Shown piece by piece: positions 26,701-44,700 of a stretch of 64,000 bases of DNA; the stretch's first letter is position 1, and each line of letters begins with the position of its first letter. A program made the position numbers and the translations under genes. The notes under the pieces were generated by a model. It worked only from the letters and a program-made list of their open reading frames with translations. It had not been told where the DNA came from and ran no database searches. The stretch covers positions 868,001-932,000 of the forward strand of contig CAVNZM010000008.1 of the NCBI GenBank assembly GCA_963693365.1, given 5' to 3'. Source of the DNA: Amoebidium appalachense. Lineage: Eukaryota > Protista > Ichthyosporea.

Positions 26701-29700
26701 ATCTACAGCTATGTCGTGATAATGCACATGCGGGACCCATGTGCTTATGGACATTATACTATATCAAAAGGATGTCGTACTCCAAATAATAAAACAACTC
26801 GTATGTGTACAAACACAAGCGCCACCTCCCCCCTCCTCCAGCACCTTTTTGGCATACCGCCGTGTCCCTTTCCCCCCTACACCCCAAGTTTAAACTATTC
26901 CTCACACATCTTCAACCTTTATGCCGGTGTGAACCTGATAGCACAATGTCAGCAAATCACCCTTTTACGACACACTATAACTTTGGCACTTTGCGAAGTG
27001 GAAACAACTTCATCTCGGCTTAGTCATGTGCCGTGCAGCCTTGTGGACACCCCTCACATCCACGTCTGTCTCACCTGTTCATGCGTGGGCAGGTTCCCAG
27101 CTGCCCCAACCCCCATCCGCCAGGTCATTTGCTGTCGGTGCAAGAGCGAGGCAGATGGAGGCGGAACAAAGCCGCTGACAGCCTTGCCCTGCAGAGATTT
27201 CGGCAGTGTGAGTGTGTACATGAGTGTACCTTGTGTGTGTGTGTGTGTGTGCGTGTGCGTGTGCGTGTGCGTGTGCGTGTGCGTGTGCGTGTGCGTGTGT
27301 GTGCGTGTGTGTGCGCGTGTGTGTGTGTGTGTGTGTGTGTGTGTGTGTGCCCACACGCACATTTATGCGAACACTGGTCTGTGTGTGCGGATGTTAACGG
27401 TCTCACAAGGAAGAGGGAGAGGGAGAGGAAGAAGCGGGAGGAGCTAGGGAGGGAGGGAGGGAGGTAAAAGAGACAGACGACATACCCCCCCCCCCCCCCC
27501 CGCACACATACACACAGGGAGGGGGGGGGGGGGGGGGGGGGGGCAAGGGGGGGGAGGAGGAGGGGAGGGAGGGAGGAACGGAGGGAGGTCTGGCTGGGGG
27601 GGGGGGGGGGGGGGGGGGGGGAGCCTCCCAAGAGGGAGGAAACAGAAGAAATCGCGAGAGGGAGAGAGAACAGCCAAGATGGAGACCAAACAAGAGACTG
27701 AAGGGCAGAGGAAACGAGAATTGAAGCACACGCCACGTAGTGGTACGAACGCACCAGTTTTGGCAAAGCAAGGAGTATGGAGAAGGTTCGAAATAACTGG
27801 CGGGTTGGGTGGTGTGTGTGTGTGTGTGTGTGTGTTGGGGGGGGGGGGGGGGAGGGGGGGGGCATCCGCGGGTGTGTCTTGGGGGGGGGGGGGGGGGGGG
27901 GGGGGGGGGGATAAGGGCACAATCCATGGGTGAAGGGACACGGACGCCTGAACGCCTGCAAACACTCAGACTCAAAGGTGAGGACACATGTGCACACACA
28001 CAGAAGAGAGATGCACCCCAGTGAGTGAAAGAAGGTGAGCGCCAAACACAGCTCACATGCCTACAAGCAAGCAGTCTCTTCCATTTCTGTTTTTCCTGTC
28101 TGTGTATGATAGGCAGCTACGGCAACCCATATGCACATCGACACTGTTTTTACTACATGAATGCCATACATCCCCCCCCCCCCCCCCCCCCCCCCCCCCC
28201 CCCCCGCGCCCCCTTCCTCCTAACAACAACAACAACAAAAAAACACACCTTCACACACACTCACACAGAACCAAAAAAAAAGAGGAAAAAGTAAAAAAAA
28301 GGGGGAAAAGAGAGAAACAGAGACGAGAACAAAGCAAAAGAAAGGAATGAGAGGAAAGAGATCCCCAGGCACATCATAACAAACTTCTAAGCATCCCACT
28401 CTCCCATCCCTCAGCCCCCTTTCGCACCCCTCTTTATCCCGCGTAACACATACAAACTTCAACCCCACCCCCAGCCATATATCCAGTGTGAGCCCACTGG
28501 CACCAACTCATCGGTAGAAAAATCCTCCAAATACATCGCAACCTCCTCAACATATCTTGGGCAGCGGAACCCCCCCCCCCCCCCCCCCCCCCCCTCCTGG
28601 CTTTTGCATTAATGACGCACTCTTATTGAGACCCGCTAACCCACCATGCCATGCATGCACTTCCGACTGTGTGTGTGTGCCTCACCTGCACATGCAGGGG
28701 GATGTTCCCAGCTGCCGCCGTCCCCACCCCCCAGGTCATTTGCTGTCGGTGCGAGAGAGAGGCAGATGGAGGCGGAACAAAGCCACTGCCAGCGTTGCCC
28801 TGCAGAGATTTCGGCAGTGTGAGTGTGTACATGAGTGTACCTTGTATACGCGCACGTGTGTATGTGTGTATGTGCTACAAGCGGAACAAGGTATGTGCCC
28901 ACCCAGCACACACACATACAAGCACATAGTCCCTTTCAACACGTTTTCCTCCGTGTCACACTCTCAACCCAACTGCATATAAACATCCTATCAACCGCAT
29001 GAATGTCAACCCCCCCCCCCCCCCCCCCCCCCCCCCTTCACTCGCGAGGATCATAGAGGCTACCGAAGGTTGTGATGCCTGTCTAAATCGACCAAGAACA
29101 TGCCCTAGTTTGTCGTTATTCCGCCCGGCAGCAACGATTCTTGAGAAGACCAATAGTGTAACCCACAAGCTGCCATTATGTTAACACAAAAAACAAGTTT
29201 TACTTGGTAAACTATTGTTGTTTGCTTGCGTTGAGCAACAACACTATCAACAACATGTTATCCGCATTTGCAACACAATGTCACTAAGCATGTAGTACAA
29301 ATCACTGACATGTATGGACATTTCTAGCCTGCCACGTTGTATTCGAAGTGTTGGCCGACAGAAGTGCCCTACCCCACCATGCCATGCATGCACTCCCCCA
29401 CTGTGTGTCTCACCCGCACGTGCACGGGCAGGTTCCCAGCTGCCCCCATCCCCATCCCCAAAGCTGTTTGCTGGTTGTTGGGAGGGGGAGCCAGTGGTGG
29501 TGGAGCAGAGCCAACACTACCATCATCCTGCAGAGAAACAGTTGTTGAGCGTATGCACTGTGTGTGTGTGTGTGTGTGTGTGTGTGTGTGTGTGTGTGTG
29601 TGTGTGTGTGTGTGTGTGTGTGTGTGTGTGTGTGTGTGCGTGTGCTTGCGTGCGTGCGTGTGCGTGCGTGTGTCTGTGTGCTTGTGTGTGTTGGTCGTAA

Positions 29701-41700: not shown

Positions 41701-44700
41701 TAGCATGTTGATAGGGCATATACCTGTCGGCATGCATTAGTTTGTTTTGGCTTTTTCTGTTGATTATAAGCCGTAATAGAGTTGTTAAGGTTAGATATGC
41801 CATGCAGACAAATCAATATGCCGGCCCGAACAGGTCAATCAGAGGGAGACCTACCTTGCACTCGGGGCACTCCAGCCGCACAAACCCATGCACACACTCT
41901 CGCTTTAGATAGTCGTGTGGCTCGTTCCTCCTTTTTTCCTGTTTACACGCATGTGTCAGGCCCGTGTGTTTTTGGGTGTCCGTGAGTGAGTGATTGAGTA
42001 GGTGGGTGTGTGGGTGGGGGTGTGTGTAGGTGAGTGTGTGTGTGTGTGTGGGCGGCATGTGGGTGTTTAGGGTATGATCACACTTGTACGTGCACAGGCC
42101 TGCATGCATAGGCATGAGATCTAGAGGAATCGCGTGTGTGTTGGGGGGGAGGCGTCGTAGTGTGGAAAATGAGCAAAGGTTATGCAATTTCGTTTTGCAA
42201 CTTCAATACATGGTGGAGTGTAGGGAAACAAAGAAGTTGTGGCATGAGAGTATGTTTTGAGGTCACGAACGCAGGGGTAGAGAGAGGTGCACAGATGTGT
42301 TTCTTGTATGAGCAGACTGAATCATGCAGCCGGCAATGGTGTGTGTGTGCGCGCGTGCATACATACCCCTGCCCCTCTGCTCATGTTTGGTGTGTGTGTG
42401 TGTGTGTGTGTGTGTGTGTGTGTGTGTGTGTGTGTGTGTGTGTGTGTGTGTGTGTGTGTGTGTGTGTGTGTGTGTGTGTGTATGTGTGTGTTTGTGTGTG
42501 TGTGTGTGTGTGTGTGTGTGTGTGTGTGTGTGTGTGGTGCTTCTGTTTGCCTGTGTGGGTGTGCATGCATGCGTTTGCGTGCCTGTCTGCATGCTTGCAT
42601 TTGCCTGTGTGTGTGATGCATCAGTTTTCCTGTGTGTGTCTACATCCTTGTGTTTGCCTGCGTGTTGGTGTGTGTGTGTATGCATGCATTTACCTGTGTG
42701 TGCATGCATTGCACATGTTGTGCGTGTACATGCATGTGTTGCTCTTTGTCAGTGCATGCATGTGTCGCCTGTATGTGTGCATGTGTTCGCCTGAAGTCTT
42801 TGCCCGTCTGTTTGCAAACAATCCTTTTTAGTGCATGCATGTGTTTCCTTGTATGCACGCCGGCTGTATGTGGTCATTTTACGTGCCTCCGTGGTGTAAC
42901 CAATCTTCATTTCCAGGCTTCACACATCCGTGCATTGGGATTTCTGTGTGTCTGTGTGTCTGTTCCCGAGCATATGTCTGTGTCCGTGTCCGTGTGTGCG
43001 GGTGTCTGTGTGGTTTGTTGGTTGGCTGTCATAATTCTTTCGAAAGTTTCTTTGCATGGGTGGGAGTTGGGGGGGGGGGGAGGGGGGTCTTCGTTTTATT
43101 TTTCTTCAAGGGGAGGGGCAGAAGGGGGGGGGGGGGGGGGGGGGGGGGAGGAGGGGGGGGGGGGGGGGGGGGGGGGGGGCACCTGTTGAGCCGCCATGCA
43201 TTGTCCACAAGTTACGCCTGATTCCGATCCGTGCTTGCATCCTTTCTGTAAAAGGTTGGGTGGCCGATGAGAACAAATGGACAGGTGAAGCATCATGCAA
43301 AAGGGGGGGGGGGGGGGGGGGGGGAGGGGGGGGGGGGGGGGGGGGGGGACAGATAATCTAGGAGGAGGAGGACTTGAGAGCATGTGTATGTGTATACGCA
43401 GGGAAGGGGGAGGGGGGGGGGGGGGGGGGGTTGAAACCAAAACAAGGAGGCCAATATGGAAACAAAAACATTTAAAAGCCACCAAAAAAAAAAGGGGGGG
43501 GGGAATAATATGGTTAAATGATTGCCAGAAACAAAAGCAACTGATAGAAATCAAACAACAGTAAAGGTAAAACACTCTTGTTAAAACAGAGCCCATCTGC
43601 AGGAGGGTTCATATTCCTTCCCCCAAAAAAACCGAGAGGGGGGGGGGAGTGGAGGGGGGCAAGTGAGGAGAAAGGGGTGTGAAGGAGTGAGGTGTGTGTG
43701 TGTTTGGGGGGGGGGGGGGGGGGGGGGGGGGGGGGGGGGGGGGGTTTGAATGCGGGGGGGGGGGGGGGGGGGGGGGGGGGGAGTAGTGAGTGAGGAGGAA
43801 TGAAACAGGCCATATGCTCAATTTCCTTGCACACGTCACCACATGAAATACACGTGTAATTTAACCCAAGGACGTACCGTCACCTGCATGTGTGCATTTG
43901 TTGGTGTTCATTGCATGCACATGTGTGTATGTATCATCGGTGATTAGTGGGCGCCTATATTTGTGTTTGGGCGCCTGGCAGGGGGTCTCTTTGTGTGCAT
44001 GTGCATGTGCATGTGCATGTGCATGTGTGTGCAAAGGGCTGTGCATGCGTTTCGGGGGGGGAAGGGGGGGGGGAGGGGGGGGGAAGGGTGGGAGTCACCC
44101 ACATTATCAATACACACTCTGCATTTATCCTTGAATCTGTTGTGCTCGCAAAGCACTGCCGTACCGCAATCAAAACACTTAGCCCATCGCCGCCTGTGCG
44201 GGCACACACCTTTGCCCCCACACTCCCAACAATAGTAGCGATAGCGGTCGTGTGGGCATAGGCCACCTCGGCATCGCACCTTTTTCTTCCTTGTAGTTGG
44301 TTTCTGATCAGTCGGCGCCCGTGGCTGGAGAGAGGATGAGATAGGTTAGCTGGTGGATAGGTGGGGTCTTGCAATGGGATCAGCGTGGCTGCGGGCTAAT
44401 AGGTGCCTTCGGAGAGAAGACAGATGCTCGATTGTGCAAGGAGATTTTCATCGAAATAATATCAATATCAATATGGTAAATTCGAAACGATGTTTTTAGC
44501 TCGGTTGGAGATTAGATAAAATATGATAATTGGTCGATGATCTAGATGGAAATAGATCGGCATCTGAATAAAGGCTTGTTTTAGTGGTCTTTAGGACACA
44601 ACAGCATATCCTAAACAAACATTCTGCCTTTGCGTGTTGCCAATAAATGGAGTTCGATGAATGCCCGTGTATGTGAAGTCAAAATTCAAGAACGTCGAGT

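What the first reader, a model, noticed from the sequence alone, without database searches (positions are those of the whole stretch)
27075..43245. Array of 14 symmetric phase-0 cassette exons (A-B-C-D blocks) in a Cys/His-finger gene: candidate combinatorial diversification system
Seen: 14 small exons of 57-114 nt, all multiples of 3, phase 0 at both ends, with canonical AG/GT. They fall into four paralogous classes. A = C.H...C..C finger (43245, 38930, 33871, 32971). B = basic patch plus EC.HG.VR..C.EC finger, always 84 nt (41938, 37294, 31629). C = K/R-rich linker (40975, 36894, 31110). D = G/P-rich spacer (35313, 29527, 28799, 27188; three are 114 nt). Order along the transcript is ABC-ABCD-AABCDDD. 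Cys/His positions are held while residues between them vary ([49 protein letters not shown]). Known: symmetric exon arrays underlie Dscam splicing diversity and exon-shuffled LRR receptors in Ectocarpus. Inference: any subset can be skipped, duplicated or shuffled in frame, so this could be a one-finger-per-exon diversifying recognition protein, for example a nucleic-acid-binding defence factor analogous to KRAB-ZNF arrays.
Basis: partly seen in the sequence, partly recalled or inferred. Interest (0 to 1): 0.85.

Follow-up and report, generated by a model that had tools for sequence, protein, structure and literature searches.

The report
Virus-like finger gene, block-duplicated exons
In a single-celled relative of animals, an expressed gene carries 14 small in-frame exons that arose by copying whole exon-plus-intron blocks, and it encodes a likely zinc-binding, likely DNA-binding repeat also found on giant-virus nucleases, with exon content differing between gene copies while the part tested by RNA is spliced in order rather than shuffled.

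Summary
The 14 exons are real: AG/GT, phase 0, 57-114 nt, order ABC-ABCD-AABCDDD, far above chance. They lie inside a 19-exon minus-strand gene (47331 to about 24769, 979 codons, about 19 C-x-H-x(6)-C-x2-C fingers) of an ichthyophonid ichthyosporean, with two paralogs in the window. RNA contigs join D2>D3>D4>T1 in order; no skip with window-identical letters was listed. A/B/C splicing is largely untested. Introns were copied with the exons (71-88% identity, same orientation), so this is tandem block duplication, and frame symmetry is the expected survivor of that. Copies differ in modules: paralog G1 reads A-B-A, and a second expressed copy joins a D3-like exon straight to T1. Ligands are fixed (0/20 changed against 58/100 other residues), but dN/dS is 0.2-1.4 and never significantly above 1. 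The finger matches no Pfam family or solved fold; it matches the repeat on giant-virus PD-(D/E)XK-like nucleases, and no nuclease is found here. Verdict: a fast-drifting finger-gene family remodelled in evolution, not a demonstrated Dscam- or Ectocarpus-type diversifier.

The parts
46579..47331 (-). G2 exon E1: ATG, acidic region (net charge -27), several fingers; phase-0 donor
   Evidence: 88% of sampled words of 46560-47900 held by run X1
45566..45814 (-). G2 exon E2, two fingers (partly degenerate), phase 0-0
   Evidence: predicted boundaries
44103..44324 (-). G2 exon E3: basic patch plus three canonical 18-aa C-x-H-x6-C-x2-C repeats, phase 0-0
43183..43245 (-). A1 finger exon, 63 nt
   Evidence: predicted
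41855..41938 (-). B1 finger exon, 84 nt
   Evidence: predicted
40877..40975 (-). C1 basic linker exon, 99 nt (rival donor at 85 nt)
   Evidence: predicted
38862..38930 (-). A2 finger exon, 69 nt
   Evidence: predicted
37211..37294 (-). B2 finger exon, 84 nt
   Evidence: predicted
36811..36894 (-). C2 linker exon, 84 nt
   Evidence: predicted
35257..35313 (-). D1 spacer exon, 57 nt
   Evidence: predicted
33809..33871 (-). A3 finger exon, 63 nt (93 nt from the second in-frame acceptor at 33901)
   Evidence: predicted
32903..32971 (-). A4 finger exon, 69 nt
   Evidence: predicted
31546..31629 (-). B3 finger exon, 84 nt
   Evidence: predicted
31027..31110 (-). C3 linker exon, 84 nt
   Evidence: a C-exon 3' end is joined to D2 in RNA, but C2 and C3 cannot be told apart
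29414..29527 (-). D2 spacer exon, 114 nt
   Evidence: spliced to D3 in RNA contig
28686..28799 (-). D3 spacer exon, 114 nt
   Evidence: spliced to D4 in RNA contig
27075..27188 (-). D4 spacer exon, 114 nt
   Evidence: spliced to T1 in RNA contig
26441..26540 (-). T1 exon, 100 nt, phase 0-1
   Evidence: (joint and loose end to T2)
24769..25199 (-). T2 exon: basic/Pro region plus 2-3 fingers; 3' end and stop uncertain
34886..38989 (-). Duplicated block 1 (A2-B2-C2-D1 with introns)
29044..33034 (-). Duplicated block 2 (A4-B3-C3-D2 with introns), collinear with block 1; introns about 20% diverged
1062..8287 (-). Paralog G1 (E1, E2, E3, A, B, A, then off the window edge); all its in-window introns phase 0; no C exon between B and the second A
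20422..23734 (-). G3: further finger-coding exons of the same repeat, with an internal duplication (about 81% identity)

Best explanation
The 14 exons are the middle of one expressed 19-exon gene whose exon-plus-intron blocks were duplicated in tandem, and whose tested 3' exons are spliced in order into what is likely one long, probably nuclear, likely zinc- and DNA-binding finger protein. Shown: exon structure, co-duplicated introns, in-order splicing of D2-D3-D4-T1, different module content between copies, fixed Cys/His, and kinship of the finger with giant-virus nuclease repeats. Inferred: unequal crossing-over among repeat-rich introns as the copying route; only phase-0 symmetric blocks survive because others break the frame; A/B/C are included constitutively; each C-x-H...C-x2-C unit holds one Zn; basic residues contact DNA; K/R motifs act as nuclear signals. 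Diversity is generated in evolution, between paralogs or alleles, with non-ligand residues drifting at about the neutral rate.
For: Introns are collinear and same-strand: A2-B2~A4-B3 76%, B2-C2~B3-C3 88%, C2-D1~C3-D2 71%, D1-A3~D2-D3 84%, and A1-B1 matches G1's A-B intron at 76%; 0 of 19 intron pairs are inverted. RNA: 3 of 3 joints are adjacent GT-AG joints, and one contig spans D3-D4-T1 with 0 differences. G1 reads A-B-A. A variant with 9 differences joins D3-like directly to T1-like. Ligands 0/20 changed against 58/100. Finger nonsynonymous divergence 0.25 against intron 0.196, P=0.16; large finger exons have dN/dS 0.29-0.41. Ten relatives at E 4e-42 to 6e-12; 7 of the 10 carry a C-terminal nuclease-like domain by sequence inspection. 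48 viral loci, many on GVMAG contigs. The E3 model matches giant-virus proteins at E 2.5e-5 to 2e-4. No membrane segment (max hydropathy 1.13) and four K[KR]x[KR] motifs.
Against: Splicing of A1-D1, A3, A4 and B3 was not observed, and contigs hide rare isoforms; only 8 of 25 pieces were displayed. The C>D2 join could be C2>D2. Zn and DNA binding are not shown. A fingers have longer spacers (7-9 against 6 in 93 of 94 database repeats) and score weakly on the viral profile, as do most B fingers (0.1-8 bits, g1B1 13.9). B2/B3 changed faster than the neighbouring C2/C3 (18/67 against 5/66, P=0.005), and 13 of the 14 listed variant letters lie in changes that alter residues (P=0.12); both hint at positive selection. 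No genome is held, so family size is unknown.
Confidence: 0.62

Rival explanations
1. Arms-race sensor: a giant-virus-type DNA-binding repeat was domesticated without its nuclease and is under positive selection and block shuffling to recognise viral or transposon DNA, in the way KRAB zinc-finger proteins do.
For: The repeat is shared with nucleocytovirus nucleases and no nuclease is in the window. It forms a tandem family with module turnover. B2/B3 dN/dS is 1.38 and faster than C2/C3. An ichthyosporean with hundreds of endogenized giant viruses is described (PMC11244446, abstract and passages).
Against: No pair has dN/dS significantly above 1; pooled fingers 0.58. No repressor or other Pfam domain. 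The repeat also occurs in Chromera and in a mostly chlorophyte cluster, so the direction of transfer is untested. No target is known.
Confidence: 0.15
2. One reading: cassette exons are skipped or chosen combinatorially within cells (Dscam-like), or rearranged somatically (as proposed for Ectocarpus), giving an isoform repertoire.
For: All 14 exons are symmetric. Ichthyophonids have long introns, and Sphaeroforma has raised exon skipping (PMC6142364 passages). A D3-like>T1-like join exists. The A/B/C region is untested.
Against: That join carries 9 differences, so it comes from another copy. Window-identical D exons are spliced in series. Classes are interleaved rather than clustered. No orphan or inverted exons and no complementary intron pairs. 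The same paper reports a negative 3n bias of skipped exons in Sphaeroforma.
Confidence: 0.08
3. The array is a largely neutral, expendable linker expansion: a disordered region grown by duplication, whose single fingers serve in protein contacts or do little, while function sits in the multi-finger exons E1-E3 and T2.
For: Array exons pooled have dN/dS 0.80, and C/D pairs 1.05, against 0.29-0.41 for large exons. Half the modules (C, D) are low-complexity linkers. Isolated fingers are far apart.
Against: Ligands are strictly kept. All length variants are multiples of 3 with no stop codons. C2/C3 (7% different) is more conserved than introns (20%). Arg at finger position 7 is kept in 4 of 4 B exons.
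Confidence: 0.15

Closest known systems
Giant-virus (Nucleocytoviricota) Cys/His-repeat + PD-(D/E)XK-like endonucleases, e.g. Pithovirus LCPAC404 A0A481ZHE8, LCPAC304 A0A481Z8I3, P0125-P0130
   Same: Same C-x-H-x6-C-x2-C unit with 18-aa period. E3 scores up to 21.7 bits per repeat, and its model matches at E 2.5e-5 with 51% identity.
   Different: The host gene has 18 introns and no nuclease in the window. Fingers are dispersed among linkers, and A fingers have longer spacers. The viral nuclease fold itself matched only at E >= 2e-3.
Ectocarpus ROCO LRR and NB-ARC TPR exon shuffling (PMC3341825 passages; PMC11378527 abstract)
   Same: Phase-0 repeat exons, one repeat per exon for A and B, and module number varying between paralogs.
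   Different: Four unequal classes are copied as multi-exon blocks with introns. No spare or inverted exons, no significant positive selection, no signalling domain, likely nuclear.
Arthropod Dscam1 mutually exclusive exon clusters (recalled)
   Same: Tandem paralogous exons.
   Different: Paralogs are interleaved with other classes, and D3 and D4 are included together.
KRAB- and ZAD-C2H2 zinc-finger clusters (recalled)
   Same: Tandem gene cluster; ligands fixed with variable residues between them; finger gain and loss.
   Different: A different finger (CHCC, not C2H2); no KRAB or other known effector domain; array split over many exons; no target data.

Membership tests
Giant-virus Cys/His-repeat endonuclease family | C-x-H-x6-C-x2-C repeat | tested here: met
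   34 of 47 window fingers have spacer 6; E3 and G1 E2/E3 score up to 21.7 bits; B exons have spacer 6, A exons 7-9
Giant-virus Cys/His-repeat endonuclease family | C-terminal PD-(D/E)XK-like nuclease | tested here: not met
   Nuclease profile against six frames of the window: best score -5.8 bits; an intron-split or off-window copy is not excluded
Giant-virus Cys/His-repeat endonuclease family | Intronless gene in viral context | tested here: not met
   18 introns, 3 of them shown by RNA joints; the neighbour is calcineurin A
Ectocarpus-type exon shuffling | One repeat per phase-0 exon | tested here: met
   Holds for A and B (7 of 14 exons); C and D carry no finger, and E1-E3 and T2 carry several
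Ectocarpus-type exon shuffling | Inactivated or opposite-strand spare exons in introns | tested here: not met
   nhmmer on both strands: no extra copy better than E 0.11
Ectocarpus-type exon shuffling | Positive selection on repeat exons | tested here: inconclusive
   dN/dS 0.23-1.38, none significantly above 1; few codons
Ectocarpus-type exon shuffling | Repeat number differs between paralogs | tested here: met
   G1 A-B-A against G2 A-B-C-A; a variant copy lacks D4
Dscam-type mutually exclusive splicing | Only one paralog per cluster in an mRNA | tested here: not met
   D2>D3>D4 joined in series; A3/A4 not tested
Dscam-type mutually exclusive splicing | Docking/selector base-pairing in introns | tested here: inconclusive
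   0 of 19 intron-pair matches on the minus strand at E<=1e-4; short elements would be missed
KRAB-ZNF | KRAB domain and C2H2 fingers | tested here: not met
   Pfam scan of 16 window segments (14 from the finger genes): best E 0.016, none at cut-off
KRAB-ZNF | Binds and silences mobile DNA | not testable with these tools
   needs ChIP/DAP-seq and knock-down

The most novel reading that the evidence does not exclude
An ichthyosporean has turned the DNA-reading repeat of giant-virus endonucleases into its own nuclease-free, exon-modular, rapidly remodelled family of nuclear finger proteins that recognise endogenized viral or transposon DNA: a convergent KRAB-ZNF-like system built from an uncharacterised finger fold.
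Probability: 0.15. Interest if true: 0.85.

Novelty: new variant of a known kind. Interest (0 to 1): 0.45.

Why it matters
The duplication route is ordinary, but the module is not. An 18-residue Cys/His repeat with no Pfam family and no solved-structure match is shared between giant-virus nucleases and a fast-remodelling gene family in a relative of animals. In the viral repeats, positions 5 and 7 are mostly Lys while 6, 8 and 9 vary, which suggests a testable DNA-recognition code. If the host proteins read viral or transposon DNA, they would offer a candidate targeting layer for silencing endogenized viruses outside animals.

Tried and rejected
No whole genome is held, so family size and strain comparison were not possible. 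The run index listed no holder on record as RNA, but X1 proved to hold spliced contigs; X2 and X3 laid nothing on 26200-29555 (not proof of absence). The E1 search among longer proteins found nothing, and the Atlas search of E1 gave only scores <= 0.82. PDB sequence and fold searches for E3 gave nothing. Apparent excess divergence of finger exons over introns (P=0.003 with BLAST-selected intron segments) vanished with global intron alignments (P=0.16), so it was rejected. Two dN/dS rows (E3/g1E2 out of frame; g3b/g3c crossing a frame break) were dropped and redone. A hammerhead in the dispersed intronic repeat was considered: Rfam lists none among 47 matches, and only a tRNA passed its cut-off. 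Our earlier findings: nothing in 3 look-ups. Paper searches (listings only, apart from four papers) showed no description of this repeat or family; the library is partial, and supplements of PMC11244446 were not opened and may bear on this. Chance or artefact was rejected.
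Full report
Observation. Joined by coordinates with three upstream exons (E1 47331-46579, E2 45814-45566, E3 44324-44103) and two downstream exons (T1 26540-26441, T2 from 25199), they give 979 codons without a stop; the 3' end is uncertain. 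DNA profiles recover exactly 4 A, 3 B, 3 C and 4 D exons in this gene (G2). A null scan finds 7 distinct finger-bearing exon-like segments, against 0 on the other strand and a mean of 0.08 in 100 shuffles. Phase 0 holds for all 17 introns from E1 to T1; calcineurin next door has 5 of 8. Rival splice sites exist for C1, A2 and A3.

Organism and context. The neighbouring calcineurin A groups with Sphaeroforma and Ichthyophonus (96/97 support; 20 rows chosen from 120 hits), so the host is an ichthyophonid ichthyosporean. The genus is not established. No genome is held. The window has two more genes with the same finger: G1 (8287 to the left edge; E1, E2, E3, A, B, A) and G3 (23734-20422).

Splicing. 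Run X1 holds spliced contigs: on 26200-29555 it covers 13 of 30 bins, mainly exons, and lists three joints, all GT-AG and all between neighbours: D2>D3, D3>D4, D4>T1. Loose ends show C>D2 and T1>T2. One contig spans D3-D4-T1 with no differences, so D exons are not mutually exclusive. None of the three possible skips among D2, D3, D4 and T1 was listed with window-identical letters. A contig with 9 differences joins a D3-like exon straight to a T1-like exon, and another joins T1 to 215 letters whose tested 19-mer has no match in the window; these point to further expressed copies (paralogs or divergent alleles).

Origin of the array. Introns were copied with their exons. A2-B2~A4-B3 align at 76%, B2-C2~B3-C3 at 88%, C2-D1~C3-D2 at 71% and D1-A3~D2-D3 at 84%; the A1-B1 intron matches both later A-B introns and G1's; all 19 pairs are same-strand. 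So an A-B(-C) unit predating the G1/G2 split was expanded, an ABCD block of about 5.9 kb period was duplicated, and D was duplicated again. Frame symmetry is what survives such events; PMC3341825 states this requirement (passage). Unequal crossing-over aided by (CA)n, poly-C and a dispersed repeat is inferred, not shown. The Ectocarpus hallmark of spare or inverted exons is absent.

Selection. Ligand residues changed in 0 of 20 positions against 58 of 100 others (five pairs, P=4e-7). Large finger exons are under purifying selection (dN/dS 0.29-0.41). Array pairs range from 0.23 (A2/A4) to 1.38 (B2/B3); pooled 0.58 for fingers and 0.80 for four recent pairs; none exceeds 1 significantly. Finger nonsynonymous divergence (30/120) is not above global intron divergence (523/2670; P=0.16). 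It did exceed BLAST-selected intron segments (P=0.003), which is a biased comparison. Hints the other way: B2/B3 changed faster than C2/C3 (P=0.005), and 11 of 12 changed codons in the RNA variants are nonsynonymous (13 of 14 listed letters; P=0.12). Reading: ligands fixed, the rest drifting near neutrally; positive selection is possible but unproven.

The finger. No Pfam family reaches cut-off for 16 window segments or 13 relatives, and there is no solved-structure match by sequence or fold. A profile of five finger exons found 10 proteins (E 4e-42 to 6e-12) with C-x-H-x6-C-x2-C repeats of 18-aa period. Seven end in a nuclease-like domain by inspection, and one is from Chromera velia. P0127 has 48 relatives in viral contigs, many labelled GVMAG. 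Its model (pLDDT 77.6, pTM 0.43) matches PD-(D/E)XK-type structures only weakly in PDB (best E 2e-3) and viral endonucleases strongly (37 at E<=0.001). The E3 model (pLDDT 75.9) matches six viral proteins at E<=0.001, including two pithovirus proteins. The Atlas's first hit is a Nucleocytoviricota-rich cluster at 0.90, weak by the tool's own calibration. B exons keep the canonical spacing and an Arg at position 7 (4 of 4); A exons have spacers of 7-9 and score weakly. No nuclease is detectable in the window. Zn binding and DNA binding are inferred from four ligands per unit, basic residues and the nuclease association; the model has no membrane segment and four basic NLS-like motifs.

Comparison. 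It works like other tandem repeat-exon genes remodelled by block duplication. It is not a member of the Dscam type (recalled definition; D exons co-included) or of KRAB-ZNF (recalled; different finger, no KRAB), and it meets only part of the Ectocarpus ROCO pattern (PMC3341825 passages; PMC11378527 abstract). PMC6142364 (passages) reports raised exon skipping in Sphaeroforma but with a negative 3n bias, which lowers the prior for a frame-preserving isoform repertoire. PMC11244446 (abstract and passages) describes hundreds of endogenized giant viruses in an ichthyosporean, which makes a viral link plausible but does not mention this family in the passages seen. Searches showed no description of the repeat; earlier scan findings held nothing.

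Verdict. The feature is real and expressed. It is best explained as a block-duplicated, in-order-spliced finger gene in a fast-changing family (0.62). Rivals are an arms-race DNA sensor (0.15), a largely neutral linker expansion (0.15) and combinatorial splicing (0.08). Novelty: a new variant of a known kind; interest 0.45, carried by the uncharacterised virus-shared finger rather than by the exon symmetry.

Noticed in passing
window 9275-10495 and 16250-17502: About 1.2-kb inverted repeats, 96-99% complementary, about 6 kb apart, with a third partial copy at 11602-11863. The arm ORF (10020-10598) has no Pfam match and no transposase was seen. Possibly a non-autonomous element or an inversion duplication.
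   Followed up: partly
window 16152-16223 (+): tRNA-Gln(CTG) just inside the right inverted arm.
   Followed up: partly
window 39655-39960, 34026-34800 (two copies), 53806-53986, 22679-22785, 36396-36459, 59764-59865, 1698-1813: Dispersed repeat of up to about 350 bp ending in poly-C. The copies at 39655-39834 and in a calcineurin intron are 99% identical, so it moved recently. Copies lie upstream of A2 and A3 and may have aided duplication; no Rfam match.
   Followed up: partly
window 49054-57152 (-): Nine-exon calcineurin A gene, 485 aa, used for taxonomy. Its introns are G-rich on the sense strand (GC skew +0.34), while those of finger genes G1 and G2 are C-rich (-0.42, -0.35), though all are on the same strand; unexplained.
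   Followed up: partly
window 41364-41588: About 225-bp imperfect palindrome (78%) in the B1-C1 intron, MITE-like.
   Followed up: no
window 20422-21165 (-): Second copy of the G3 finger exon changes frame near 20660-20740: a short intron or a frameshift.
   Followed up: no
L001-L048 and P0125-P0130, P0132: Giant-virus repeat-plus-nuclease proteins have about 10-17 tandem fingers; positions 5 and 7 are mostly Lys (77%, 89%) and 6, 8, 9 vary among 360 distinct repeats, which looks like a modular DNA-recognition code worth its own study.
   Followed up: partly
window 62158-62499 (-): Open frame of 114 aa of unknown identity near the right end.
   Followed up: no
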